A stretch of 64,000 nt of DNA from Bacteroides sp. Its GTDB lineage: Bacteria > Bacteroidota > Bacteroidia > Bacteroidales > UBA7960. The DNA is taken from NCBI GenBank assembly GCA_036351255.1, contig JAZBOS010000109.1, forward strand, positions 64,039 to 128,038, given 5' to 3'. This document shows, one piece after another, positions 560 to 60,459 of the stretch. The notes under the pieces were generated by a model, which worked only from the letters and a program-made list of their open reading frames with translations, searched no databases and was not told the DNA's origin. Numbering within the stretch: the stretch's first letter is position 1; each line of letters opens with the position of its first letter. The position numbers and the translations under genes were made by a program.

Positions 560-817
560 AATTTGGTGATTGACATGATTGGGTTAATTAAGAAAACAAA
601 TATATGAATTTAAAAATTATTCTTGCAAAAAAGAATGGCGAAAATTAAAAAAAACCCATTAACAAATGATTAGTTCCTGCCATAAAATATTTTTTGCCAG
701 GAATTAATTTCACTAAATTGGATTTGGAATATCGAACCTTTTGGTTATCAGGAAATTTGGAACCACTCCCGGCCGGGTTTCGACCCTTGGCAAGCATGTA
801 TCCGGATCAAAAATAAA

Positions 818-926
818 ACGTAGATAAAACGAATTTTAAACGTAGTTCAGACGTAGTTCAGACGTGCACACACGTCTGAACTACGTGTTAACTACGTGTT
901 AACTACGTGTTAACTACGTCTGAACT
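818..926. repeat. Repeat element A: inverted arrays of 11-bp units around a 16-bp-stem hairpin
   Basis: The left units begin with acg at 818, 829, 840, 851 and 862 (acgtagttcag twice). The segment 851-866 is the exact reverse complement of 871-886, with loop caca. The right units are ctgaactacgt at 876, gttaactacgt three times at 887, 898 and 909, and ctgaact at 920. Confidence 0.85.
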
Positions 927-21458: not shown

Positions 21459-21468
21459 AAATAATAAA

Positions 21469-21507
21469 GAGGCTGTCTCGAAAAAAGGAGACAGCCTCTT
21501 TTTTTTT
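21469..21507 (+). terminator. Rho-independent terminator of the rpoBC/DUF3467 unit
   Basis: The 11-bp stem gaggctgtctc / gagacagcctc is followed by T9. Confidence 0.8.
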
Positions 21508-21629
21508 GCCCAAATTGGCAGAACCCAAAACTCCTTGTTAAATTTTCCTTGTTTTTTCTGCTATCATTTCTGATCTGGCCAAGGACTTGGTTTGGAAACG
21601 AGTCTTTCCATACTCATACCACGCTCGTG

Positions 21630-21682
21630 GTTTATACGGTTTAAACCGTATAAACTCCGTTTTAACTCCGTATTAACCATGA
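21630..21682. repeat. Repeat element B: 26-bp perfect palindrome plus 11-bp tandem units
   Basis: gtttatacggttt|aaaccgtataaac occupies 21630-21655, followed by ataaactccgt / tttaactccgt / attaaccatga in 11-bp register. It matches element C at 39 of 41 positions across cggtttaaaccg..attaac. Confidence 0.8.
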
Positions 21683-21981
21683 CCCTGGTCTGGACCTTTA
21701 AGGGTTCAAACAGGGTATTGGCCTTTGCTGCTTTTTGATTGGTATCAGAGATGATAAATTGTATTTCAGGGGGAAGTTTTGGATTTTTCTTTGGAAGATG
21801 GAATCAAAACCCAGCAGTGACTTTTATCTGAAATTCCTCCCGATGGAGAATGGCGTTTGGTTCCCGGTTGTATTCTTACCAGGTTGATTTTCTGAGTGGT
21901 TTTGAGAAGGAAGTAAGTATTATGAAAAGGGTCCCCCTGGAAAACTAAGGCGAAAGAATCCCGGATGGATTATTTTTTAGA

Positions 21982-25465: not shown

Positions 25466-25661
25466 GGATTTTTACGGATTACGCTGATTAAAGTAAAGTG
25501 CCAAGGGCATGGGGCATGGAGCAAAGGGCACCGAGTAAAAGGCGTGGGGCATGGAGTCAAGGGCAAGGGGTAGAGGATATGGTGGATGGTGGCGTACAAT
25601 CAACCTTGAATCTTGAACTTTAAACTTTGAACCTTGAACCCCTAACTCCAAACGTCCTACC
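25466..25661. repeat. Array of 28 in-phase degenerate heptanucleotides filling the dinB-dnaE2 spacer
   Basis: The plus strand reads ..ccaaggg catgggg catggag caaaggg caccgag taaaagg cgtgggg catggag tcaaggg caagggg tagagga tatggtg gatggtg gcgtaca atcaacc ttgaatc ttgaact ttaaact ttgaacc ttgaacc cctaact ccaaacg tcctacc. No indel breaks the phase. Confidence 0.9.
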
Positions 25662-50991: not shown

Positions 50992-51066
50992 TGGGACGTA
51001 CTGGAATCGAACCAGTGACCTCATGCCTGTCAAGCATGCGCTCTAAACCAACTGAGCTAACGCCCC
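50992..51066 (-). tRNA. tRNA-Val (anticodon GAC)
   Basis: I folded it by hand: acceptor GGGGCGT/ACGTCCC (one G-U pair), D arm GCTC..GAGC, anticodon stem CATGC/GCATG with loop TTGACAG, T arm ACTGG TTCGATT CCAGT. Confidence 0.85.
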
Positions 51067-51150
51067 GTTTTTTGAATTAGGGAATGCAAAAATAACAAAA
51101 AAACCTAATCAGGTAAAAAAAATGCGTGCTCTTGGTTTATTTTACCCGGG

Positions 51151-52686
51151 TTAAAGGGGGATATTCCCGTGTTTTTTCGCAGGGGCAGTTTCGCGCTTGT
51201 TCTCGCACATTTCGAGGGCCTGGATCAACTTGAGCCTGGTTTGCCTGGGATGGATGATCTCGTCAATATAACCCAGTCCAGCGGCTTTAAACGGGGTGCA
51301 GAAGGCTGATTTATAATCGGCCACTGCCTGGGTCCTCTGGATTTCATCCAGTTTATCCCTGTAAAGAATGCTTGCTGCCCCCTCTGGTCCCATTACCGCG
51401 ATCTCACCGGTTGGATAGCTGTAATTTACATCCCCGCCCAGGTGTTTGCTCGACATGACAATATATGCACCACCATAGGCTTTCCTTGTAATTACGGTAA
51501 TTTTTGGAACCGTGGCTTCGGCATAGGCATAAAGCATTTTCGCTCCGTGTTTTATTATTCCCCCATATTCCTGATCAGTACCGGGTAAAAATCCGGGGAC
51601 GTCCTCGAAGGTGACAATCGGGATATTGAAAGAGTCACAAAACCTTACAAATCGTGCAGCCTTCAAGGAAGCATTGATGTCAATTACTCCGGCAAGCATG
51701 GCAGGCTGATTGGCAACAATTCCAACAGGTTTCCCATTTAGGCGTGCAAAGCCAATGATCATATTCTGGGCAAAGTGTTGCTGCACTTCGAAGAAATTGT
51801 TATCATCAACCACTGTGGTAATGATTTCTTTCATATCGTAAGGCTTGTTGGGATCTTCCGGAACAAGGTTCGTAAGCTTCTCGTCCTGCCTGTGGGAAGA
51901 ATCGGTACAAGGTTTTACGGGTGGGTCCTCCATATTATTGGAAGGAAGAAAACTTAGCAATTCGCGAATCATCATCATGGCCTGCTGATCGTCATCGGCA
52001 GTGAAGTGTGCCACCCCGCTTTTGGCATTATGCGTCATAGCCCCGCCCAGCTCTTCCTTGGTTACCTCTTCGTGGGTAACCGTTTTTATGACATCAGGTC
52101 CGGTAACAAACATATAGCTGGTTTTCCGGGTCATGAAAATGAAGTCTGTTATGGCAGGCGAATACACAGCGCCTCCTGCGCAGGGACCCAGAATGGCAGA
52201 TATTTGGGGAACTACTCCGCTGGCCTGAACATTCCTGTAAAAGATATCACCATAGCCTGCCAGGCTCTCCACACCTTCCTGGATGCGGGCACCCCCACTG
52301 TCGTTCAGGCCAATGATAGGAGCTCCCATTTTCATGGCCAAGTCCATAATCTTCATGACTTTATTGGCGTTGGTTCGGCTAAGGGATCCTCCAAAAACTG
52401 TGAAATCCTGGGCAAACACATAAACCAGCCGCCCATCAATTTTACCGTAACCTGTTACAATGCCATCGCCTTCAATCTTTTGCTTGTCCATCCCAAAGTC
52501 TGTACACCGGTGAACAATAAATTTATCCAGCTCAACAAATGTTTTTGGATCCAACAGATCTTTAATGCGTTCACGCGCGGTTTTGCGCCCCGAAGCGTGA
52601 ATTTTAGCTATGCGTTCTTCCCCGCCACCCAATTCGGCGGCACGGTTCTTCTCTTCAAGTTCCCTGTATTTCTCTTTCAATGACAT
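51151..52686 (-). CDS. Acyl-CoA carboxylase carboxyltransferase subunit (propionyl-CoA carboxylase beta / methylmalonyl-CoA carboxyltransferase family)
   Basis: The 511-aa product shows full-length similarity to the PccB/12S family (GGARIQEG, ..FPGFLPG..). Confidence 0.92.
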
Positions 52687-52700
52687 ATCATGAATCTTTT

Positions 52701-53228
52701 TTATTCAACATCTGTATATTCAATGACCACCAAAGGCTGGCGAGCCTCAACGGTTTGTCCCTCGACAACCTTGATTTCGCTTATCCTTCCGGCTTTCTTC
52801 GCCTTAAATTCACTCTCCATTTTCATGGCTGAGATGATTACAAGGGTTTGACCGGCTTCAACAGCTTCATCTTCCTTGACCAGTAACCTGACCACTTTCC
52901 CGGGAATGGGCGCAGAAACGACACTTTCACCATCATCATCCTGACCTTTCTTTCGACTGGCAAGGTATTTGGCTTCAGCATCAATGATCTCTACTTCAAA
53001 TGAGTTCTTCAGGGTGTTAACAACAAATCTTTTGATCCCGCCATTGGCTGGAATCAATTCAATGTTAAAGGACTTGTTCTGGTATATGACTGAATAACTG
53101 ACATTGCTGATCTTAACAAAATCAAGCTCAAATTCTTTACCGTCAACCGAAACCAGTACTTTGTTATCTTGCCGGCTTAGCAACTCAATGTTGGCTATCC
53201 GGTTATTCAATTTTACCTCGTATGACAT
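52701..53228 (-). CDS. Biotin carboxyl carrier protein (biotin/lipoyl attachment domain)
   Basis: Its C-terminus is ..[18 protein letters not shown].., which contains the AMKM biotinylation motif. Confidence 0.85.
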
Positions 53229-53237
53229 ATCCTTTTC

Positions 53238-54743
53238 CTAGAGTTTAAAAACATTTCTTACCCTGTTGTAGTCTTTCCAGTTGTTCTTCAAGGCCGTCAT
53301 TTCTTTCGGGCTGGCTTTTTCCATCTTATCCAGGTATTCAATCAAAGCGGTAATCATCACGATCTCTTCACAAGAATTTTCACACCGGTCTTCTTTCATG
53401 AGAAATTCAAGGTTTTCCTGGATAAAGTGGGTATTGTAATTTCCCTTTATGAAATCATCAGCAAGAATAATTCGTTCAAGGAATTTTAAGTTGTTTTTCA
53501 CACCAGTCACCTTGAATTCCTTAATGGCCCGTAATGTCCTTTCAAGCGCATCATTCCGGTCGCGACCCCAAACGATTAACTTGGCAATCAGGGGATCATA
53601 ATAAAGGGGGATCTCAAAGCCTTCATAGATATATCCGTCAACCCTCACCCCAACGCCGTAAGGGATGTCAATATGACTCACTTTTCCAGGGGCGGGCATA
53701 AAGTTGTTTTCGGGATCTTCGGCATAAACCCGGCATTCGATGGCGTGTCCGTTCTGACTTAGTTCAGATTGCTTGAAAGCTAAAGGTAACCCATTGGCGA
53801 TATTGATTTGCTCTTTGACCAGGTCAACGCCCACAACCCTTTCAGTGATGGGGTGCTCAACCTGCAGGCGGGTATTCATTTCCAGGAAATAGTAATTGAG
53901 ATCATTGTCCACAATGAACTCAATGGTTCCTGCACCATCGTAATCCACGGCTTTAGCAGCTGCTACTGCGTGCGCTCCCATTTCTATCCTTTTGGCCTCG
54001 GTAAGAATGGGAGAAGGTGTTTCTTCAATGATCTTCTGGTGGCGCCTTTGCACCGAGCATTCTCGTTCAAACAAATGGATTACGTTCCCGTGTTTATCTG
54101 CCAGGATCTGGAACTCAATGTGGTGGGGCGATTCGATGTATTTTTCAATAAAAACGGAATCATCACCAAATGCTGTTCTTGCTTCCGAACGCGCAGACCG
54201 TAGAGCATTCTTGATCTCGCCGGGCTCCTTAACCAGCCGCATGCCCTTTCCACCTCCTCCTGCCGAAGCCTTGATCATCACCGGAAGGCCAATCTCTCCA
54301 ATGATCTTCAGGGCTTCGCTTTCACTGGAGATCTTCCCGGGTGTACCCGGCACAACAGGCACTCCCGCCTCCGTCATGGTCTTGCGGGCGGTGATCTTAT
54401 CTCCCATTTTTGAGATCGCATAGGGCGAAGGGCCAATAAAAATGATCCCTTCCTTCTGACAGCGTTCAGAAAACCCTGCATTCTCCGACAAAAATCCATA
54501 ACCCGGATGTATGGCATCAGCACCGCTGGCTTTAGCGGCTTCAATGATGTTTTTCCGGTTCAGGTATGATTCCAGGGAGGGAGAGGGACCAATATAATAC
54601 GCTTCATCAGCATAAAGCACGTGCATGGCCTTGCGGTCGGCATCCGAATAAACAGCTACCGTTTGAATGCCCATTTCACGGCAGGAGCGGATAATCCGTA
54701 CTGCAATTTCCCCTCGATTCGCCACCAAAACTTTTTTGATCAT
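53238..54743 (-). CDS. accC: Biotin carboxylase subunit of acyl-CoA carboxylase
   Basis: MIKKVLVANRGEIAVRIIR.., ATP-grasp motifs, and 501 aa. Confidence 0.95.
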   Translation of the reverse strand: MIKKVLVANRGEIAVRIIRSCREMGIQTVAVYSDADRKAMHVLYADEAYYIGPSPSLESYLNRKNIIEAAKASGADAIHPGYGFLSENAGFSERCQKEGIIFIGPSPYAISKMGDKITARKTMTEAGVPVVPGTPGKISSESEALKIIGEIGLPVMIKASAGGGGKGMRLVKEPGEIKNALRSARSEARTAFGDDSVFIEKYIESPHHIEFQILADKHGNVIHLFERECSVQRRHQKIIEETPSPILTEAKRIEMGAHAVAAAKAVDYDGAGTIEFIVDNDLNYYFLEMNTRLQVEHPITERVVGVDLVKEQINIANGLPLAFKQSELSQNGHAIECRVYAEDPENNFMPAPGKVSHIDIPYGVGVRVDGYIYEGFEIPLYYDPLIAKLIVWGRDRNDALERTLRAIKEFKVTGVKNNLKFLERIILADDFIKGNYNTHFIQENLEFLMKEDRCENSCEEIVMITALIEYLDKMEKASPKEMTALKNNWKDYNRVRNVFKL

Positions 54744-54779
54744 TCTTGTTAGTATTGGTTCTTAATTTTTTTAGGATGG

Positions 54780-54787
54780 CAAAATTA
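54780..54787 (-). promoter_or_regulatory. Candidate -7 promoter box (TAATTTTG on minus strand) for the carboxylase operon
   Basis: The plus-strand caaaatta matches TAnnTTTG and lies about 37 nt upstream of the ATG at 54743. Confidence 0.4.
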
Positions 54788-55224
54788 CTAAACAATTGTT
54801 TTAAACCAACAAATTTAATTTCTTTTTAAGAAAAATTGGGCGCGATAATCATTACAATCCTTGTTGACATTGGTTTCATCATTCCCTGTCGTGGCTTTTT
54901 AGTTCCAGTCCAGGCAATGTCATAACATAAATATAATATTTATTATGATTGTCTTGGAAATAACCGCTGGTTTTTTCTTCCCCAATAGGATGCCGATTTT
55001 GGTAAAAACTATAGAATAGACGGGTATTCCGGGACGATTTATTAACCAATTTCCTTTAGCTTTACCCGAATGCAATTCCACCCTTTGCTGTTTTGAAAAA
55101 AGCGGTCAAAAGGGGGCAAAGGCTGGTTTGAAAAAAATAGAAATAGTAGAAATTCCTTCCCCTATTAAGGGAAAACGGCAATTTCGGTGAGAAAAAACAA
55201 TAATGCTATCAGGCGCGTGAGCCG

Positions 55225-56727
55225 TTACTGCTCAACATATACATTCCCACTGGAATCCTTAAAGACCCTTTTGGAAGAACTTCCACCAAGAATTCCTAAG
55301 ACGACCAGGAGAATGATGGCGATAACAATCAGATAAGCGGCAATGATCATTGAGGCGAAAGAGGCTATTGCCGATACTACAAGAATCAACAGGAACCTCA
55401 GCAATCCCCATAATGCACCTGCCTTGATAAAGCTTTCCACAGCCGTAATAATAACCCCTAATAGCAAGATAATGAAGGCACTCCAAACGATCCAGGTATG
55501 CAGGGCATGGCCTTTGGGCCAGAACAAAGGGGTGTTGAAGAAAGCTTCTGTGTCATTCTGCCAGAACACCAGCAATGCACCCATGCCGGCACCAATGATC
55601 ATGGCACCCATCGCAGCCCATGGCGTTCCCGGATATTTACTGCGGTCGGCCTGGTAGATCAGGAACTCGTCAATGACCCGGAATTTTTTAATAAAAAGCC
55701 CGGCAAGTACCAGGATGCCCAAAAGAATGACCCAGAAATACCAGGACCTGAAGTTCATGTATTTCTCACCGAATCTTTCCATTGGAGATTGGGTAATGTC
55801 AATTCGGTTCAGATAACGTTCGGGTACAAACCCTGTTTTCCCGGGTTCCGGTTCAAAGCTTACCAGTCTTTCGTTATTTGCCGGGTTGACCATAGCCTCA
55901 GCATGGACAATGGTGTCGTTGCGCGAAAGGCTGCCAATGACTTTTGAGTTTTCATCCATTTTCTCACGGACGGGAAGAGAATTGGACGAGACGATGTAAA
56001 TGTATTCACGCTCGGGCTGCGGTGGTTCCTCGTAAGGGACCTTTGCCCGGAAAAGAGTATTGATTTCATTTTCTGACAGCGCCCTGTCGTAAAGCCTTAC
56101 TTCATCGATGCTCCCCTTATAAAAATGCTTGCTGCGGGGACAGGCTCCGATCAGGAAAAAGTCACTCCCGTGAATGATCTCGGCGGGCGCCGTGCGTTTC
56201 TTTTCATTGGCATAAACGGTGACAGTTTTTTTGTTCTGGTCGTAAACCACCGCTACAAAAGTCCAGTCGGCCCGGTCAATGGTCAGCGACCGGGTTTCGC
56301 CATTCCCGTCGTAAGCAAACAATTCCATATTCCGGTCATCGCTATTATACCTGACCTTCAGTGCCCTGTCAAAACCCCCGTCATCCTGTGAAAAAATGGA
56401 CATGATGGATTGTTTTTTTGGGGGATAATGACCGGTTTTGATCCAGGCCACAAAGGTCATCTCTGGCATTACAACCGGGTTGATGTCAATGGGAATTGTA
56501 ATTTGGTTCTTTTTCCCAACGAATCGAAAGGAGCCCCTGTTTTCTCCGGTAAAAACATCTTGGTCGGGCCAGACCCGTTTTACAATCCCGTGATTTTCAT
56601 TTCCGCTCAGATCGCGAGCGTTGCCTGAAAAGTCGTATTGCCCAATAAGACTTTCGGTTGGTTCTTGTGCGGATAAAAGGGTGAAGAGAAAAATAAAAAC
56701 TGAAAAAACAAATAAAGAATTTTTCAT
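55225..56727 (-). CDS. Signal peptide + LamG/ConA-like lectin domain + SH3b-like segment + C-terminal polytopic membrane domain protein
   Basis: The signal peptide is MKNSLFVFSVFIFLFTLLSAQ. The LamG hallmarks are FSGNARDLSGNENHG..FVAWIK..GSIDEVRLYDRALSENEI. The last ~170 aa contain roughly five hydrophobic helices. Confidence 0.7.
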   Translation of the reverse strand: MKNSLFVFSVFIFLFTLLSAQEPTESLIGQYDFSGNARDLSGNENHGIVKRVWPDQDVFTGENRGSFRFVGKKNQITIPIDINPVVMPEMTFVAWIKTGHYPPKKQSIMSIFSQDDGGFDRALKVRYNSDDRNMELFAYDGNGETRSLTIDRADWTFVAVVYDQNKKTVTVYANEKKRTAPAEIIHGSDFFLIGACPRSKHFYKGSIDEVRLYDRALSENEINTLFRAKVPYEEPPQPEREYIYIVSSNSLPVREKMDENSKVIGSLSRNDTIVHAEAMVNPANNERLVSFEPEPGKTGFVPERYLNRIDITQSPMERFGEKYMNFRSWYFWVILLGILVLAGLFIKKFRVIDEFLIYQADRSKYPGTPWAAMGAMIIGAGMGALLVFWQNDTEAFFNTPLFWPKGHALHTWIVWSAFIILLLGVIITAVESFIKAGALWGLLRFLLILVVSAIASFASMIIAAYLIVIAIILLVVLGILGGSSSKRVFKDSSGNVYVEQ

Positions 56728-56910
56728 TTGAGGAGTATTTTGTTTTACTGGTAGGCGAAAAGGGCAAATTGGTTGAGTAAATTTTAAAGGACAAACCTAA
56801 AAAAAAAATCTCAGGGAAGATGCATAAAATTTAATTATTTGAAAAACCCGGGAAAATTTATTCCCTTTCAGCCAAAGAAATTTGCTCAGCCCCCGAAAGG
56901 GCTTGCAACA

Positions 56911-57384
56911 TTATTCGTTGTGGTATGATTCGTTGCGAAGTATGGTAAACGCCCTGTAAAGCTGTTCTGTAAAGAAAAGGCGGGTCATCTGGTGAGAAAA
57001 AGTCATGGCTGAAAGCGAAAGTTTCATGCTGGCTTTTTGATACACAACATCGTCAAAGCCCCAGGCGCCCCCAATGACAAACAACAGGTTCTTCACAGAA
57101 TGGTTGAGTCGTTGTTGCAGAAATCCGGCAAATTCAACGGAAGAAAAAGTTTTTCCCCTTTCATCGAGCAATACGGAAAAATCAGCCTTTTCGATGTGTG
57201 TTAAAATGATTTCGGCTTCTTTTTGTTTCAGAAGGGCAGGGGGAAGAGCCTGGTGCTTTTTGGGCAGCTGGGTTTCTATAAGCTCAAAACTGGTATAATG
57301 AACCAGCCGTTTTCTGTAGTTTTCAATGCCTTCACGGAGATAAGGCTCATCGGTTTTGCCTATGGCAAGCAAGGTGATCTTCAT
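56911..57384 (-). CDS. rlmH: 23S rRNA (pseudouridine1915-N3)-methyltransferase
   Basis: MKITLLAIGKTDEPYL..YRKRL..LDERGK..SSVEFA..FVIGGAWGF..SLSAMTFSHQM is the SPOUT RlmH pattern. The start is set at the ATG at 57384. Confidence 0.9.
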   Translation of the reverse strand: MKITLLAIGKTDEPYLREGIENYRKRLVHYTSFELIETQLPKKHQALPPALLKQKEAEIILTHIEKADFSVLLDERGKTFSSVEFAGFLQQRLNHSVKNLLFVIGGAWGFDDVVYQKASMKLSLSAMTFSHQMTRLFFTEQLYRAFTILRNESYHNE

Positions 57385-57562
57385 CAGGTGATTTTGCCTC
57401 AAATTTAGGATATTATAGCCATTGTGCCAATGGTTTTTGCCTCAGCATTCATTTTGCATTATCTTTGCAGAGACAATATTGAACCTTTGGAGCAGAATAT
57501 TTTTTATTTTTTCCGGTTTGGTTCAGTTTTTGTTTAAGAATAGCTGTAATTATTTTACTATC

Positions 57563-57970
57563 ATGATCAGAAGGTTAATAACCCGCATTCTCCTGTATGT
57601 TATGTTCGTGCTGCCTGTATTGCCGGCCTTTGGACAGACGGACGCCATGGCCCGTGAGATCTCGCAGGCCATTCGGCAGGGCAATGCCCGCGAAATGTCG
57701 AAATATTTTGGACAAAATGTGGACCTGACCCTGCCGGGCAGTGAGGGTACATTCAGCAAATCGCAGGCAGAAGTAATCCTGAGGAATTTTTTCTCGAAAA
57801 ACGCTCCCAAGGAACTTTCGGTGAATCACCAGGGTAATTCACGCGATGGCTCGGTTTATGTTATCGGCACCCTTCAAACCCGTAACGGGCAAACTTTCAG
57901 GACCTATTTCCTGCTGAAAAAAGTGTCCGACACATTCAGGCTGCATCAGGTTCAGTTTGAACCACAATAA
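57563..57970 (+). CDS. DUF4783 domain-containing secreted protein
   Basis: It has the signal peptide MIRRLITRILLYVMFVLPVLPAFGQ and the body ..SKSQAEVILRNFF..HQGNSRDGSVYVIGTL..FRTYFLL. The start is set at the ATG at 57563. Confidence 0.7.
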   Translation: MIRRLITRILLYVMFVLPVLPAFGQTDAMAREISQAIRQGNAREMSKYFGQNVDLTLPGSEGTFSKSQAEVILRNFFSKNAPKELSVNHQGNSRDGSVYVIGTLQTRNGQTFRTYFLLKKVSDTFRLHQVQFEPQ

Positions 57971-58156
57971 ATATTTCGTTGTGCATCCAGTTAAAATCTT
58001 AAGTAGCTGTCTCAAAAGCAGGAGGCAGCCGCTTTTTTTTGCCTGAGCCGCACTGTCCCCGAACCTCAATCCACCTCTATTTTCAGAGCAATGACCCCGG
58101 GTATGAGCCATCATGCTAAACACGACAGATCCATGCCAGGGACATACCTGGCTCAT

Positions 58157-58221
58157 AGTTAATACGGAGTTTATTCGGTTTAAACCGAATAAACTCCGTA
58201 TTAACTCCGTATTAACTCCGA
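58157..58221. repeat. Repeat element C: 50-bp perfect palindrome plus 11-bp tandem units
   Basis: The segment 58157-58206, agttaatacggagtttattcggttt|aaaccgaataaactccgtattaact, pairs perfectly, which I checked base by base. The 11-bp units ataaactccgt / attaactccgt / attaactccga lie at 58189, 58200 and 58211. Confidence 0.9.
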
Positions 58222-58641
58222 ACATGGTCCGACCCGGTAAGGAGCGTGTCATGATAATATTTTTCCTGTTCTTATTGGCTCAATGGTGGTAAATAAAAGA
58301 TAATGAGTCATTTGCGAGTATGTCTCAGGTTGCTGGGTTTGTGAATAGGAGAGGTTCAACAAAAGTGGGCAATGTCGCTGATCAGGGGGGAGCCCGGGGA
58401 AAAAAGCAGTTTCCAAATTTTGTCGAAGTGGCATGAGAATAAAAAAGGCATAGTATGGAAATTATCAGTAAGGTTGACCTGCGATGGATCCTTGGTTCAT
58501 CTTATTGATTTTGGAAAAATCTGCTGAAAATCTATTCTGTTTTGTTTCCGAAGGGCGATTCTTTTTGACTATATTTATATTTTTGTATCTAAGCATGGAT
58601 AGAAGGGACTAAAATTATTCTCTAATTAAGCCAGGGTTCTG

Positions 58642-60459
58642 ATGTTTTCACTTGAGATGGCAATTGTATTGGTAGTGCTTGTGGGAGCAGTTATACTGTT
58701 TGCCAGCGAGCGTTTCCCCGTTGATGTAGTTGCCATTATTGCCATGTCTGTCCTGGTCTTGTCGGGGGTTATCAGTCCTGAAGAAGGGGTATCTGGTTTC
58801 AGCAATTCAGCTACGATTACGGTTGCAGCGATGTTTATCATCAGTGCGGCATTGTTTAAATCTGGGGCTGTGGTTGGGATCGGCAACAAAATGGCGAAAC
58901 TGTTTCAGTACAATTTCTGGCTGGGTATCCTGCTGCTGATGGTTACCGTGGCAAGTATTTCGGCCTTTATCAATAATACACCAGTGGTGGCCATTTTTAT
59001 TCCTATTCTGGCCGGTGCTGCCGCCACTTCCAATCACAGCCTTGGGAAAATGCTTATGCCCCTGTCCTATGCTTCGATGTTTGGGGGATTATGCACCCTG
59101 GTCGGGACCTCAACCAATATCCTGGTCAGCGGGGTGGCTGCCGATCATGGCCTTGAGCCTTTTGCCATGTTCGAGATGGCTAAGATGGGCCTGGTGCTTA
59201 TGGCTGCGGGGGTGGTGTATATGATGACTGTTGGGATTCGCCTGATTCCTGATCGCGGAAATAGCGAAGGCCTGGTGAAGAAGTTTGGAATGGGCGACTA
59301 TCTTACCGAGATTGTCTTGCTTCATAATGCCCCTTCCGCTGGAAAATCCATTTCAGAATCCCCGTTGGTTAAATCCCTTGAAATAGATATCCTTGAGGTG
59401 AATAAAAACGGCCAGCATTTTATTATGCCAAGCGGTGATATGTTGCTGGAGGAGGGCGATATCCTGAAGGTAAGGTGTGATGTTAGCAAAATTAAAGCCC
59501 TCAAGGAAAGACAAGGCATCGCCCTGAAAAGTGACTTTAAGTTTAGCGAAAAGAAAATGCGAGGGGGGGAAGGCGAAAAAGAAGAGGAGAAGTTAATCCT
59601 TGTGGAAGCTGTTATTGCCCCTAATAGCCATTTTGAAGGAAAGACGGTTAAGGAGCTGGGCTTTCGCCAGCGCTATGGCGCCACAGTGCTGGCCATTCGT
59701 CACCGTGGCGAGATTATGCGTGATAAGGTGGCCACAACGGTCCTACGTTCGGGCGATACCTTGCTGATCGAAGTAGACCACGAAAGACTTCCTAATTTGC
59801 AGCAGTTGCAATTGCGGGGGCGTAATACGTTTTTAATTGTTTCAGAGGTTGGGTTTCCCGAGTTCAGGAAGGATAAGATATACACCGTAATTTTTACCCT
59901 GGCAGCCATCATTGCCCTGGCTTCCTTTAACATTCTTCCCATCATGGTTGCTGCCCTGATTGGCTCCATGTTCCTGGTAGTAACCAATTGCATCAGTATG
60001 GAGGAAGCCTATACGGCCATCGACTGGAAGGTGATTTTCTTGCTGGCTGGGGCCATGAGCCTTGGGGTTGCCCTTGATAACAGCGGGGCGGCAATGCTGA
60101 TCAGTGATTTACTAATTAACCTGGTGGGAGGCTGGGGGCCTACGGCTGTGCTTTCAATTCTTTTCCTCGTCACCACCCTGCTCACTTCGGCTATGAGCAA
60201 TAATGCAAGTGCGGTCTTACTGGCCCCCATTGCTATCGCCACGGCGGTTTCACTAAACGTGGACCCCAGACCCATGCTGATGGCCATTACCTTTGCCGCT
60301 TCCTCAAGCTTTATGACCCCGGTGGGCTACCAAACCAATACGATGATTTATGGCGCCGGAAGATATAAATTCACCGATTTTATCCGGGTTGGAACACCAC
60401 TTAATCTTATCTTCTGGTTTTTGGCCACCTGGTTGATACCGGTTTTTTTCCCATTTTAA
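58642..60459 (+). CDS. SLC13/DASS-family anion:cation symporter with two central TrkA-C (RCK_C) domains
   Basis: The 605-aa product has two multi-TM halves flanking two TrkA-C-like segments (..GKSISESPL..ILEV.. and ..GKTVKELGFRQRYGATVLAIRH..). Confidence 0.88.
   Translation: MFSLEMAIVLVVLVGAVILFASERFPVDVVAIIAMSVLVLSGVISPEEGVSGFSNSATITVAAMFIISAALFKSGAVVGIGNKMAKLFQYNFWLGILLLMVTVASISAFINNTPVVAIFIPILAGAAATSNHSLGKMLMPLSYASMFGGLCTLVGTSTNILVSGVAADHGLEPFAMFEMAKMGLVLMAAGVVYMMTVGIRLIPDRGNSEGLVKKFGMGDYLTEIVLLHNAPSAGKSISESPLVKSLEIDILEVNKNGQHFIMPSGDMLLEEGDILKVRCDVSKIKALKERQGIALKSDFKFSEKKMRGGEGEKEEEKLILVEAVIAPNSHFEGKTVKELGFRQRYGATVLAIRHRGEIMRDKVATTVLRSGDTLLIEVDHERLPNLQQLQLRGRNTFLIVSEVGFPEFRKDKIYTVIFTLAAIIALASFNILPIMVAALIGSMFLVVTNCISMEEAYTAIDWKVIFLLAGAMSLGVALDNSGAAMLISDLLINLVGGWGPTAVLSILFLVTTLLTSAMSNNASAVLLAPIAIATAVSLNVDPRPMLMAITFAASSSFMTPVGYQTNTMIYGAGRYKFTDFIRVGTPLNLIFWFLATWLIPVFFPF

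What the first reader, a model, noticed from the sequence alone, without database searches (positions are those of the whole stretch)
58157..58221. 50-bp perfect palindrome flanked by 11-bp tandem units (repeat element C)
The segment 58157-58206 is a perfect inverted repeat with no loop (centre ..cggttt|aaaccg..). The right arm continues into 11-bp direct repeats: ataaactccgt, attaactccgt, attaactccga. The palindrome arms are built from the same 11-mers, so the element is effectively two inverted arrays of an 11-bp unit, about one unit per helical turn. It lies in a 670-bp non-coding gap upstream of the SLC13 transporter gene. Perfect loop-less palindromes of this length are rare in bacterial chromosomes, and arrays with helical-turn spacing are typical of cooperative protein-binding sites. 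As I recall, plasmid R1 parC carries clusters of 11-bp iterons bound by ParR. Other possibilities are a REP/MITE-like mobile repeat or a cruciform-forming terminator.
Basis: seen in the sequence. Interest (0 to 1): 0.65.

Follow-up and report, generated by a model that had tools for sequence, protein, structure and literature searches.

The report
Interspersed palindromic repeat of 11-bp units
The 50-bp perfect palindrome is real, and it is one copy of a multi-copy intergenic repeat family in a Bacteroidales lineage, built from two inverted arrays of 11-bp units and closest in kind to REP/MITE selfish repeats rather than to a plasmid centromere.

Summary
Window 58157-58206 is a perfect 25+25 bp loop-less palindrome, the longest in the window. 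Its right arm runs on in 11-bp units to about 58231.

It is not unique. The window holds a second copy of the same family (21630-21678, after rpoC/DUF3467) and a copy of a sister family (813-926, unit AACTACGTnTk). A related Bacteroidales MAG (JAAYLH01) has at least 25 copies. All 40 copies examined are intergenic, in every gene arrangement, with no recurrent neighbouring gene.

The copy at this locus sits at the same spot in JAAYLH01, about 95% identical inside unalignable intergenic DNA. More distant relatives with the same gene order lack it. The rpoC-locus copy shows the same pattern.

I found no Rfam, plasmid or phage match. There is no T-run, and canonical terminators lie upstream of all three window copies.

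Best reading: a non-autonomous REP/MITE-like palindromic repeat whose helically phased units are protein-recognition modules. The binding protein is unknown.

The parC/ParR reading fails its defining features.

In other Bacteroidota, arrays with near-identical units flank a GxxExxY (PD-(D/E)XK) nuclease gene in five of five independent contexts. That is an undescribed lead.

The parts
58139..58156 (.). Left outer flank of element C (GGGACATACCTGGCTCAT). It includes a decayed third left unit.
   Evidence: It aligns with GGACATCCTCCTGGTTGATACGT next to the orthologous copy in L105, while the rest of the intergenic DNA does not align. It also forms part of the imperfect inverted repeat I1.
58157..58181 (.). 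Left arm of the perfect palindrome: two 11-bp units read on the minus strand plus the half-centre (AGTTAATACGG AGTTTATTCGG TTT).
   Evidence: I2 (100% complementary, no loop); (DNA fold -35.5 kcal/mol, z -7.7).
58182..58206 (.). Right arm of the perfect palindrome (AAA CCGAATAAACT CCGTATTAACT).
   Evidence: I2. It carries the change CCGAATAA, matched by TTATTCGG in the left arm. The family consensus is CCGTATAA/TTATACGG.
58207..58231 (+). Extra right-arm units with no partner on the left: CCGTATTAACT, then a degenerate unit CCGAACATGGT, then CCG.
   Evidence: TRF period 11; D1; CCG phase read. The orthologous copy in L105 has a different number of units.
58232..58245 (.). Right outer flank (ACCCGGTAAGGAGC), holding the AACC(A/C)GG-like terminus and the TAAGG motif.
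   Evidence: TAAGG is shared with L105. A Gibbs motif in the right flanks of 40 copies scores 214 and 242, against about 150 and 175 for shuffles.
58006..58039 (+). Canonical terminator-like hairpin plus T-run of the upstream DUF4783 gene. It is separate from the element.
57563..57970 (+). Upstream gene, DUF4783 protein.
   Evidence: Pfam PF16022, E 3e-30.
58642..60459 (+). Downstream gene, CitMHS/SLC13-type transporter with TrkA_C domains. A TAnnTTTG-like promoter stretch (tatatttatatttttgt) lies at about 58570-58590, some 350 bp beyond the element.
   Evidence: Pfam. The promoter stretch is shared with the element-free orthologue L121. That it is a promoter is my inference.
21630..21678 (+). 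Element B, a second copy of the same (CCGT) family: a 13+13 bp perfect palindrome GTTTATACGGTTT|AAACCGTATAAAC, then units AACTCCGTTTT and AACTCCGTATT.
   Evidence: It lies 120 bp after the DUF3467 terminator at 21466-21501. It is present in relatives with 94% protein identity and absent in relatives with 87-88%.
813..926 (+). Element A, the sister (ACGT) family: five inverted plus five direct 11-bp units (AACTACGTGTT / CTGAACTACGT) around the centre GACGTGCACACACGTC.
   Evidence: It lies beyond the peroxiredoxin terminator at 1119-1088.

Best explanation
Element C is one copy of a lineage-specific, multi-copy, strictly intergenic palindromic repeat family. It is a non-autonomous REP/MITE-like element, not a site tied to the neighbouring genes.

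Shown by the data:
1. Each copy consists of two inverted arrays of 2-5 units of 11 bp, with consensus AACT(C|A)CGT.T. About 8 of the 11 positions are conserved in every unit. Because the period is one helical turn, the conserved blocks line up on one face of the DNA.
2. The family entered these intergenic sites after the lineage split from more distant relatives, and was then inherited vertically.
3. The array has stayed about 95% identical while the surrounding intergenic DNA diverged beyond alignment.
4. The number of units changes between orthologous copies.

Inferred:
5. The units are recognition modules for a protein that binds cooperatively along each arm and pairs the two arms. Transposases do this at ends with multiple sub-terminal sites. 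The best worked example is the IS607 family: helically phased 9-bp direct repeats, inverted between the two ends, with no target duplication.
6. That protein, encoded elsewhere in the genome, spread or maintains the copies.
7. Unit-number changes arise by replication slippage.
8. The perfection of the palindrome arises from descent from a palindromic master, plus intra-palindrome template switching or selection.

The element probably has no dedicated role in expressing the transporter gene.
For: Family and copy number:
- Three related elements lie in 64 kb.
- The 16-specified-base pattern AACTNCGTNTTAACTNCGT hit 25 loci of a single MAG (JAAYLH01), 7 of KA13 and 5 of UBA4814, in a scan that was cut at 120 rows. 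My arithmetic gives about 0.001 chance hits per 3-Mb genome.
- Consensus and boundaries are consistent across copies.

Genomic setting:
- All 40 copies are intergenic, in head-head, tail-tail and head-tail arrangements, mostly 60-350 bp from the nearest gene.
- No protein family recurs next to them.

Gain, then vertical inheritance:
- L105 is syntenic with window 51043-58932 at 73-80% nucleotide identity. It carries the element 188 bp after the DUF4783 stop, against 186 bp in the window. The element is about 95% identical, while the flanks cannot be aligned apart from short motifs.
- L121 and six other more distant loci with the same DUF4783-to-SLC13 gene order lack it.
- Element B is present in relatives with 94% DUF3467 protein identity. 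Relatives at 87-88% have only a 42-bp gap there.

Units as recognition modules:
- Per-unit logos show AACT.CGT.T conserved and positions 9 and 11 free.
- In the sister family the right arm keeps AACTACGT in every unit, while the left arm is degenerate and AT-rich. The two arms are therefore not simply each other's complement.

What it is not:
- No Rfam family matches.
- There is no T-run, and separate terminators lie upstream.
- No plasmid or phage match.

Analogy and related arrays:
- The IS607 end architecture is described in PMC6188088.
- Arrays with near-identical units act as the terminal inverted arrays of a gene cassette in other Bacteroidota.
Against: - No transposase, recombinase or other partner protein was found for these two families. 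There is no serine recombinase, no GxxExxY gene and no recurrent neighbour in about 1.4 Mb of fetched loci. Only 8-kb pieces of the relevant genomes could be read.
- No target-site duplication is evident. The TA next to some ends is just part of the next unit.
- No insertion polymorphism between close strains was seen. All presence/absence contrasts are between lineages too diverged to align the empty site.
- Retention at about 95% identity at orthologous sites across genomes whose genes are only about 77-80% identical suggests constraint on individual copies. That is not expected of purely selfish junk and fits a host function equally well.
- The gaps holding B and C are about 470-480 bp longer than the empty sites. 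The extra DNA outside the arrays shows no similarity between loci, and a clean 60-120 bp insertion does not explain it.
Confidence: 0.55

Rival explanations
1. A host-function DNA site. The arrays are cooperative binding sites for a chromosomal protein, such as a nucleoid-associated or chromosome-organising factor or a global regulator. Purifying selection keeps them at fixed intergenic positions. Under this reading the family is domesticated or was never mobile.
For: - The arrays are conserved at about 95% at orthologous sites while the flanks are unalignable.
- The conserved 8-mers are phased by one helical turn.
- Elements sit beyond terminators, in DNA that is probably little transcribed.
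- No transposase was found.
Against: - Neighbouring genes are functionally unrelated and in every orientation.
- Two sub-families with different cores coexist in one genome.
- The family is absent from relatives that keep the same gene order, so any function is recent and dispensable.
- Unit number is not conserved between orthologous copies.
Confidence: 0.17
2. An RNA-level hairpin. When transcribed, the palindrome folds into a long stem that stabilises or terminates the upstream mRNA, or serves as an RNase III substrate or small RNA, as proposed for many REP elements.
For: - The predicted hairpin is strong (-35.5 kcal/mol, z -7.7).
- Two arm changes are matched on both sides, in window C and in L120.
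- The loop sequence of the sister family varies freely.
Against: - All three window copies lie 100-160 bp after a canonical hairpin plus T-run terminator.
- No T-run follows the palindrome.
- Copies also sit between divergent gene starts (7 of 40), and there is no consistent orientation relative to transcription.
- Covariation is not significant: 2 double changes against 15 unpaired cells, and 54 of 500 shuffles reach the observed value.
- Hairpin function does not explain the 11-bp periodicity, nor the non-complementary outer units of the sister family.
- No Rfam match.
Confidence: 0.1
3. A parC-like partition centromere bound by a ParR-type ribbon-helix-helix protein.
For: Only the 11-bp unit length and the tandem arrangement. 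That R1 parC has 11-bp iterons is from my own knowledge and was not tested here.
Against: - The context is chromosomal housekeeping.
- No par genes are adjacent.
- The arrays are inverted rather than direct.
- There are dozens of dispersed copies per genome.
- No plasmid record holds anything similar.
Confidence: 0.02

Closest known systems
REP/BIME elements and their RAYT transposases (REPtrons); GTAG- and CGTC-tagged palindromic repeats (PMC3733652)
   Same: Short palindromic repeats that are strictly extragenic, present in tens to hundreds of copies, specific to a lineage, often lying between convergent or co-directional genes, and found in several sub-families per genome. The concept is a single protein-coding locus flanked by the repeat that serves many gene-less copies. 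The GxxExxY cassettes seen in other Bacteroidota have that layout.
   Different: REPs are single 20-40 bp stem-loops (8-13 bp stem, 4-5 nt loop) with a GTAG or CGTC tag. This element is 50-115 bp, has no per-unit hairpin, and is built from tandem 11-bp units in two inverted arrays. No RAYT was seen, and the rest of the genome could not be searched.
IS607-family transposon ends (IS1535, IS607; PMC6188088)
   Same: Each end carries several short directly repeated motifs spaced by about one helical turn. The motifs are inverted between the two ends. The transposase binds them cooperatively as a filament that pairs the ends. There is no target-site duplication. A MITE made from two such ends would look like this element.
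   Different: No serine transposase was found in any fetched locus. IS607 motifs begin 10-20 bp from termini that end in GG. Here a GG-ending terminus, AACC(A/C)GG, is seen at only about a third of right ends. The resemblance is one of mechanism only, and membership was not shown.
MITEs with internal tandem repeats, such as the minisatellite-containing MITE of Porphyromonas gingivalis (PMC4596501, seen only as a title and abstract)
   Same: Non-autonomous, intergenic, multi-copy elements of Bacteroidota that contain tandem units and vary in unit number.
   Different: In those elements the tandem repeats sit between conventional terminal inverted repeats. Here the tandem units themselves form the inverted arms. 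I found no target duplication and no parent insertion sequence.
R1 parC / ParR type II centromere (from my own knowledge)
   Same: An 11-bp unit, tandem arrays and helical phasing that implies cooperative binding.
   Different: parC has two direct clusters around the par promoter, is a single site on a plasmid, and lies next to parM and parR. None of this holds here.

Membership tests
R1 parC/ParR type II partition site | Arrays of direct repeats in one orientation flanking the par promoter, directly upstream of parM-parR | tested here: not met
   The arrays are inverted around a centre. The neighbours are a DUF4783 gene and an SLC13-type transporter gene, with no RHH or actin-like gene.
R1 parC/ParR type II partition site | A single site on a low-copy plasmid | tested here: not met
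   The window carries tuf, rpoB, rpoC and tRNAs. There are 3 elements in the window and at least 25 in a related MAG. No plasmid matches.
REP/BIME (RAYT-associated) | A short 20-40 bp imperfect stem-loop with a GTAG or CGTC tag at one end | tested here: not met
   The element is a 50-bp perfect palindrome made of 11-bp tandem units, and individual units do not form hairpins. The definition is taken from PMC3733652.
REP/BIME (RAYT-associated) | Many extragenic copies per genome | tested here: met
   40 of 40 copies are intergenic. One MAG has at least 25 copies.
REP/BIME (RAYT-associated) | A RAYT (IS200/IS605-type Y1 transposase) gene flanked by the repeat | not testable with these tools
   Only the 64-kb window and 8-kb pieces of related genomes could be read. 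No protein recurs next to the copies.
MITE | Terminal inverted repeats | tested here: met
   The two arms are inverted arrays of the same unit.
MITE | Target-site duplication | tested here: inconclusive
   No consistent direct duplication flanks the 12 C-family copies. The TA or GA next to the ends belongs to the next unit. The empty sites available are too diverged to align.
MITE | Presence/absence at homologous sites | tested here: met
   Element C is present in the window and L105, and absent from L121, L123, L125, L126, L128, L129 and L130. Element B is present in L252 and L253, and absent from L255, L257, L261 and L262. These contrasts are between lineages, not between strains.
MITE | An autonomous parent element with the same ends and a transposase | tested here: not met
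   None was found for the A or C families in the fetched loci. A whole-genome search was not possible.
IS607-family ends | Several helically phased short direct repeats per end, inverted between the ends, with no target duplication | tested here: met
   The period is 11 bp with 2-5 units per arm, the arms are inverted, and no duplication was seen. The family description is from PMC6188088.
IS607-family ends | A serine-recombinase TnpA gene between the ends or elsewhere in the genome | tested here: inconclusive
Most of each genome was not available.
Intrinsic terminator | A G+C-rich hairpin followed by a T-run at a gene end | tested here: not met
   The palindrome is not listed by the terminator scan. 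Separate terminator-like sites lie at 58006-58039, 21466-21501 and 1119-1088.
GxxExxY (PF13366) cassette with inverted-array arms (seen here in other Bacteroidota, undescribed) | Inverted arrays that flank a gene for a 125-aa PD-(D/E)XK protein | tested here: not met
   The arms of element C abut, with no loop. No GxxExxY gene is in the window or the JAAYLH01 loci. The units match at 10 of 11 positions: AACTCCGTATT against AACTCCGTGTT.

The most novel reading that the evidence does not exclude
The inverted arrays of units of 10-11 bp may be the recognition arms of a Bacteroidota-wide, undescribed class of selfish cassette. Its loaded form carries a small PD-(D/E)XK (GxxExxY) nuclease gene in the loop of the palindrome. 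Its far more numerous empty forms would then be either non-autonomous derivatives or the homing targets of that nuclease. Element C and its two relatives in this window would be empty forms. In effect this would be a REPtron-like system run by a PD-(D/E)XK nuclease instead of a HUH transposase. Helical-phase unit arrays would replace single hairpins.
Probability: 0.2. Interest if true: 0.75.

Novelty: new variant of a known kind. Interest (0 to 1): 0.5.

Why it matters
Interspersed palindromic repeats such as REP, BIME and MITEs are well studied in Proteobacteria. In Bacteroidota they are barely described.

This family has an unusual construction. Its arms are made entirely of tandem units one helical turn long. 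That points to filament-like cooperative protein binding rather than recognition of a single hairpin.

The family also shows that such an element can be held at about 95% identity at an orthologous site across genomes whose genes are only 77-80% identical.

GxxExxY proteins form a very large family. The search returned at least 8000 hits with E below 1e-10, and the literature search found almost nothing about their function. If the link to the GxxExxY cassettes holds, it would give this family a genomic context and a testable DNA substrate.

There is also a practical point. These palindromes break short-read assemblies. Two Logan contigs end exactly at the palindrome centre of element B.

Tried and rejected
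- Rfam, at gathering threshold on the whole window and in E-value mode on two element regions: only tRNAs and sub-threshold miRNA-like hairpin hits.
- Plasmid and phage BLAST of the element: no match.
- IMG/VR pattern scan: 30 hits, none showing the inverted-array architecture and none resembling the A or C elements; groups of them are the same sequence recurring in many viral contigs.
- Exact-protein look-ups for four window proteins, to find strain-level variants: none on record. For DUF3467 the start codon I used gave a protein one residue longer than its homologues, which may explain that miss.
- Search for a partner protein near the copies. All-against-all clustering of neighbouring ORFs found no recurrent family. 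A GxxExxY tblastn and a narrow HMM found none in the A/C loci. A serine-recombinase phmmer search found none.
- AlphaFold2 model of the GxxExxY protein: poor (pLDDT 66). The Foldseek search against PDB gave nothing with E at or below 0.001, and the sequence search of PDB found nothing.
- Covariation in the palindrome: too little variation to decide. RNAalifold on the sister family gave a covariation term of 0.04.
- Insertion into pre-existing palindromes: the flanks beyond the arrays are no more complementary than mismatched controls (8.49 against 8.64).
- A larger (about 470 bp) mobile unit: the extra DNA beside elements A, B and C shares no similarity above shuffled controls.
- Orientation relative to transcription: 12 to 3 in one family and the opposite trend in the other, so there is no consistent bias.
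- The 13-codon ORF after TAAGGAG (58252-58293): a 13-codon ORF also follows in L105, but its sequence is unrelated, so I treat both as chance.
- Neisseria/Eikenella hits to the search pattern: an unrelated hairpin next to the DNA uptake sequence.

Full report
1. THE OBSERVATION

Window 58157-58206 is a perfect inverted repeat of 25+25 nt with nothing between the arms (I2). The centre reads ..CGGTTT|AAACCG... It is the longest loop-less palindrome in the 64-kb window. The next longest has 13-nt arms at 21642, and it belongs to the same family. Thirty first-order Markov simulations of the window never exceeded 10-nt arms.

Tandem Repeats Finder reports 58192-58220 as period 11, 2.6 copies, 100% matches. 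Reading the sequence, the CCG of the unit recurs at 58185, 58196, 58207, 58218 and 58229. The right array therefore has about five units and the left about two.

The gap runs from 57971 to 58641 (671 bp). It lies between a DUF4783 gene and a CitMHS/Na_sulph_symp transporter gene.

2. IT IS A FAMILY, NOT A SINGLE SITE

The window holds two more elements of the same build. Element B (21630-21678) follows rpoC and a DUF3467 gene. It has the same centre and the same unit, AACTCCGT. Element A (813-926) has five inverted and five direct units of AACTACGTnTk.

One pattern fits all three: AACTNCGTNTTAACTNCGT, with 16 specified bases. I scanned 185,579 species-representative genomes with it. The output was cut at 120 stretches. 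Of those, 25 come from one MAG, Bacteroidales bacterium AS15tlH2ME_224 (JAAYLH01). Seven come from KA13 (JAHYJD01) and five from UBA4814 (DHFW01). By my arithmetic, chance gives about 0.001 hits per 3-Mb genome.

In JAAYLH01, 10 copies belong to the CCGT family. Their consensus is tAGTTAATACGGAGTTTATACGGTTT|AAACCGTATAAACTCCGTATTAACTCCGTATTAAC. Another 15 belong to the ACGT family. KA13 and UBA4814 showed the ACGT family only.

3. ANATOMY

In both families about 8 of the 11 positions of every unit are conserved, as AACT(C|A)CGT.T. Positions 9 and 11 vary.

In the CCGT family the inner 23 pairs are 94% complementary over 11 copies. Each arm has 2-3 units, occasionally more, and either arm can be the longer one.

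In the ACGT family the right arm keeps AACTACGT in all 4-5 units. The left arm keeps only ..ACG.. and becomes AT-rich towards the outside. As a result only the inner 20 bp or so can pair, and the 4-6 nt at the centre vary freely.

The outermost right unit often degenerates to AACC(A/C)GG. A purine-rich CCTGAAAGGG/TAAGGAG-like motif follows within 15-35 nt, and both families share this feature (above shuffled controls). An outer CATCCT...AGGATG pair occurs in 5 of 37 copies on each side, against about 1 expected. Beyond that, the flanks of a copy are no more complementary to each other than mismatched controls.

4. GENOMIC SETTING

All 40 copies are intergenic. They occur in every gene arrangement, mostly 60-350 bp from the nearest gene, with no consistent orientation bias. 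No protein family recurs beside them.

The three window copies each lie 100-160 bp beyond a canonical hairpin plus T-run terminator of the upstream gene. Over all copies, 18 of 38 junctions between a gene's 3' end and an element have such a terminator in between. No T-run follows the palindrome itself.

I found no Rfam family and no plasmid or phage match. A scan of viral contigs gave 30 hits, none showing the inverted-array architecture; groups of them are the same sequence recurring in many contigs.

5. HISTORY OF THE COPIES

L105 (JAAYLH010000135) is syntenic with window 51043-58932 at 73-80% nucleotide identity. It carries a CCGT-family element 188 bp after the DUF4783 stop codon, against 186 bp in the window. 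Within the otherwise unalignable intergenic DNA, only the element (about 95% identical) and short flank motifs (GGACAT..CCTGG and TAAGG) align. The two copies differ in unit number, and the third left unit has decayed in the window.

A protein-guided metagenome scan returned seven more distant loci with the same DUF4783-to-SLC13 gene order and no element: L121, L123, L125, L126, L128, L129 and L130. L121 is further from the window than L105 is: 73.7% against 79.7% in DUF4783. A single gain in the common ancestor of the window organism and JAAYLH01 is the simplest account.

Element B repeats the pattern. Contigs L252 and L253 encode a DUF3467 protein 94% identical to the window's. They carry the same left junction, and both contigs end exactly at the palindrome centre. 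Relatives at 87-88% identity, UBA4814 among them, have only 42 bp and one bidirectional terminator between DUF3467 and the convergent gene.

A third case involves the ACGT family. L012 (UBA4814) and L071 (JAAYLH01) are syntenic at 77% identity, and each has an ACGT-family element at the same gene end.

The elements were therefore gained within the lineage, then inherited vertically and kept. One point remains unexplained. The gaps holding B and C are about 470-480 bp longer than the empty ones, yet the extra DNA shows no similarity between loci.

6. WHAT IT MOST LIKELY IS

The element is multi-copy, strictly extragenic, lineage-specific and palindromic. It exists as several sub-families per genome, has no linked gene, and shows lineage-level presence/absence. 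These are the marks of REP/BIME/MITE-type interspersed repeats.

What sets it apart is its construction from tandem units one helical turn long. A hairpin function does not require that periodicity. It also does not explain why the right arm of the ACGT family conserves the same 8-mer in each unit while the left arm does not mirror it.

Arrays of this kind are what multi-site transposon ends look like. The closest worked example is the IS607 family. There, several 9-bp direct repeats in helical phase, inverted between the two ends, nucleate a transposase filament that pairs the ends, and no target duplication is made (PMC6188088).

I therefore read the units as protein-recognition modules of a non-autonomous element. 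This step is inferred. No serine recombinase or other partner was found in the DNA available.

Perfect palindromy in the window copy includes a unique A:T to T:A change present in both arms. Over the family, covariation is not significant: 2 double changes, 15 unpaired cells, and 54 of 500 shuffles reach the observed value. Descent from a palindromic master, plus occasional intra-palindrome template switching (a known mutational route, cited from my own knowledge), is as good an account as selection for pairing.

7. A LEAD FROM RELATED ARRAYS

The same search pattern found a third type in other Bacteroidota. Its units are AACTCCGTGTT or AACTCYGTG, 10-11 bp long, and its ends read TTAACCAC...GTGGTTAA.

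In L102, L026 and L085 the two arms abut, as they do here. In L008 and L094 the two arms enclose about 520 bp that holds a 125-aa gene. That gene matches TIGR04256 (GxxExxY, E 6.8e-43) and PF13366 (PDDEXK_3, E 4.4e-41).

A homology search returned at least 8000 relatives, and the top 120 are 81-100% identical. Three more of them, each in an unrelated genomic context (L201, L211, L212), are flanked by the same inverted arrays. That makes five of five independent contexts.

The literature search found essentially nothing on this family. No solved structure matches by sequence. My structure model was too poor to use.

In L094 one unit of the arm is AACTCCGTATT, identical to the unit of element C. 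This suggests, but does not show, that element C is an empty member of a wider class. Loaded members of that class carry a PD-(D/E)XK nuclease. No GxxExxY gene occurs in the window or in the 25 JAAYLH01 pieces.

8. RIVAL READINGS

A host-function binding array fits the conservation at orthologous sites. It fits poorly with the unrelated neighbouring genes, the variable unit number and the recent gain.

An RNA hairpin is disfavoured by the upstream terminators, by the copies between divergent gene starts, and by the periodicity.

The parC/ParR analogy fails every defining feature that could be tested.

9. VERDICT

The interpretation as helically phased arrays is sound. The centromere analogy is wrong, and the REP/MITE-like alternative is right in kind.

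The element is a new structural variant of a known kind of repeat, with an unidentified protein partner. A side lead, the GxxExxY cassettes, deserves follow-up.

Noticed in passing
L008 6966-7529; L094 1755-2325; L201, L211 and L212 (gene at 1001-1378, arrays within about 200 bp on each side): In other Bacteroidota, inverted arrays of 10-11 bp units (TTAACCACGGAGTT.CAC.. / ..GTG.AACTCCGTGGTTAA) flank a 125-aa GxxExxY / PDDEXK_3 gene. This holds in five unrelated genomic contexts. Gene-less versions with the same ends also exist (L102, L026, L085). A conserved stretch, ctatctttataaggtctcgctaa, precedes the gene.
   Followed up: partly
window 813-926 and 21630-21678: Two further elements of the same build: a sister family with the unit AACTACGTnTk, and a second copy of the CCGT family after rpoC/DUF3467.
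   Followed up: yes
L252 and L253, last bases (1704): Two independent short-read (Logan) contigs from a close relative end exactly at the centre of the element B palindrome (..gtggtttatacggtttaaacc). This looks like an assembly break caused by the palindrome or repeat.
   Followed up: no
window 21459-21981 and 57971-58641, against L255/L257/L261 and L121: The intergenic gaps that hold B and C are about 470-480 bp longer than the element-free gaps of relatives (523 against 42 bp, and 671 against about 200 bp). The extra DNA outside the arrays has no similarity between loci. Its origin is unexplained.
   Followed up: partly
L125, about 1070-1170 (just after the DUF4783 stop): At the orthologous gap, a relative carries about five tandem copies of an 18-bp unit (gttcgagtaagcagttaag) instead of the palindromic element.
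   Followed up: no
L011 4300-4420 and 5320-5570; L076 and L107 left flanks: Other short tandem or inverted repeats sit next to the arrays in these Bacteroidota. Examples are cacagag units of period 10-11, tctctaagtc, ccttcaccc and ccccatgccc(c/t)ctgcc runs.
   Followed up: no
window 25505-25647 and 40740-40773: TRF reports 7-bp and 21-bp tandem repeats (AACCTTG about 5.6 times; AGGTTTC about 4.7 times) elsewhere in the window. They are unrelated to the 11-bp family.
   Followed up: no
flanks of 37 A/C copies: CATCCT within 60 nt to the left and AGGATG within 60 nt to the right each occur in 5 of 37 copies, against about 1 expected, and never on the opposite side. This may be a weak outer inverted motif.
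   Followed up: partly
window 58252-58293: A 13-codon ORF (MIIFFLFLLAQWW) follows the TAAGGAG motif. L105 also has a 13-codon ORF after its TAAGGA, but the peptide is unrelated, so I treat both as chance.
   Followed up: partly
L004, L019, L020, L031, L034, L075 (Neisseria, Eikenella): The search pattern also hits a repeated hairpin, gcttcgcagaAACTTCGTTTTAACTTCGTtgaagctgcg, that lies next to the DNA uptake sequence ttcagacggc. It is unrelated to the Bacteroidales families.
   Followed up: no
L012 4419-4531 and L071 4778-4898: An ACGT-family element lies at the same gene end in UBA4814 and in JAAYLH01. The adjoining 3 kb is 77% identical, and synteny stops at the element.
   Followed up: partly
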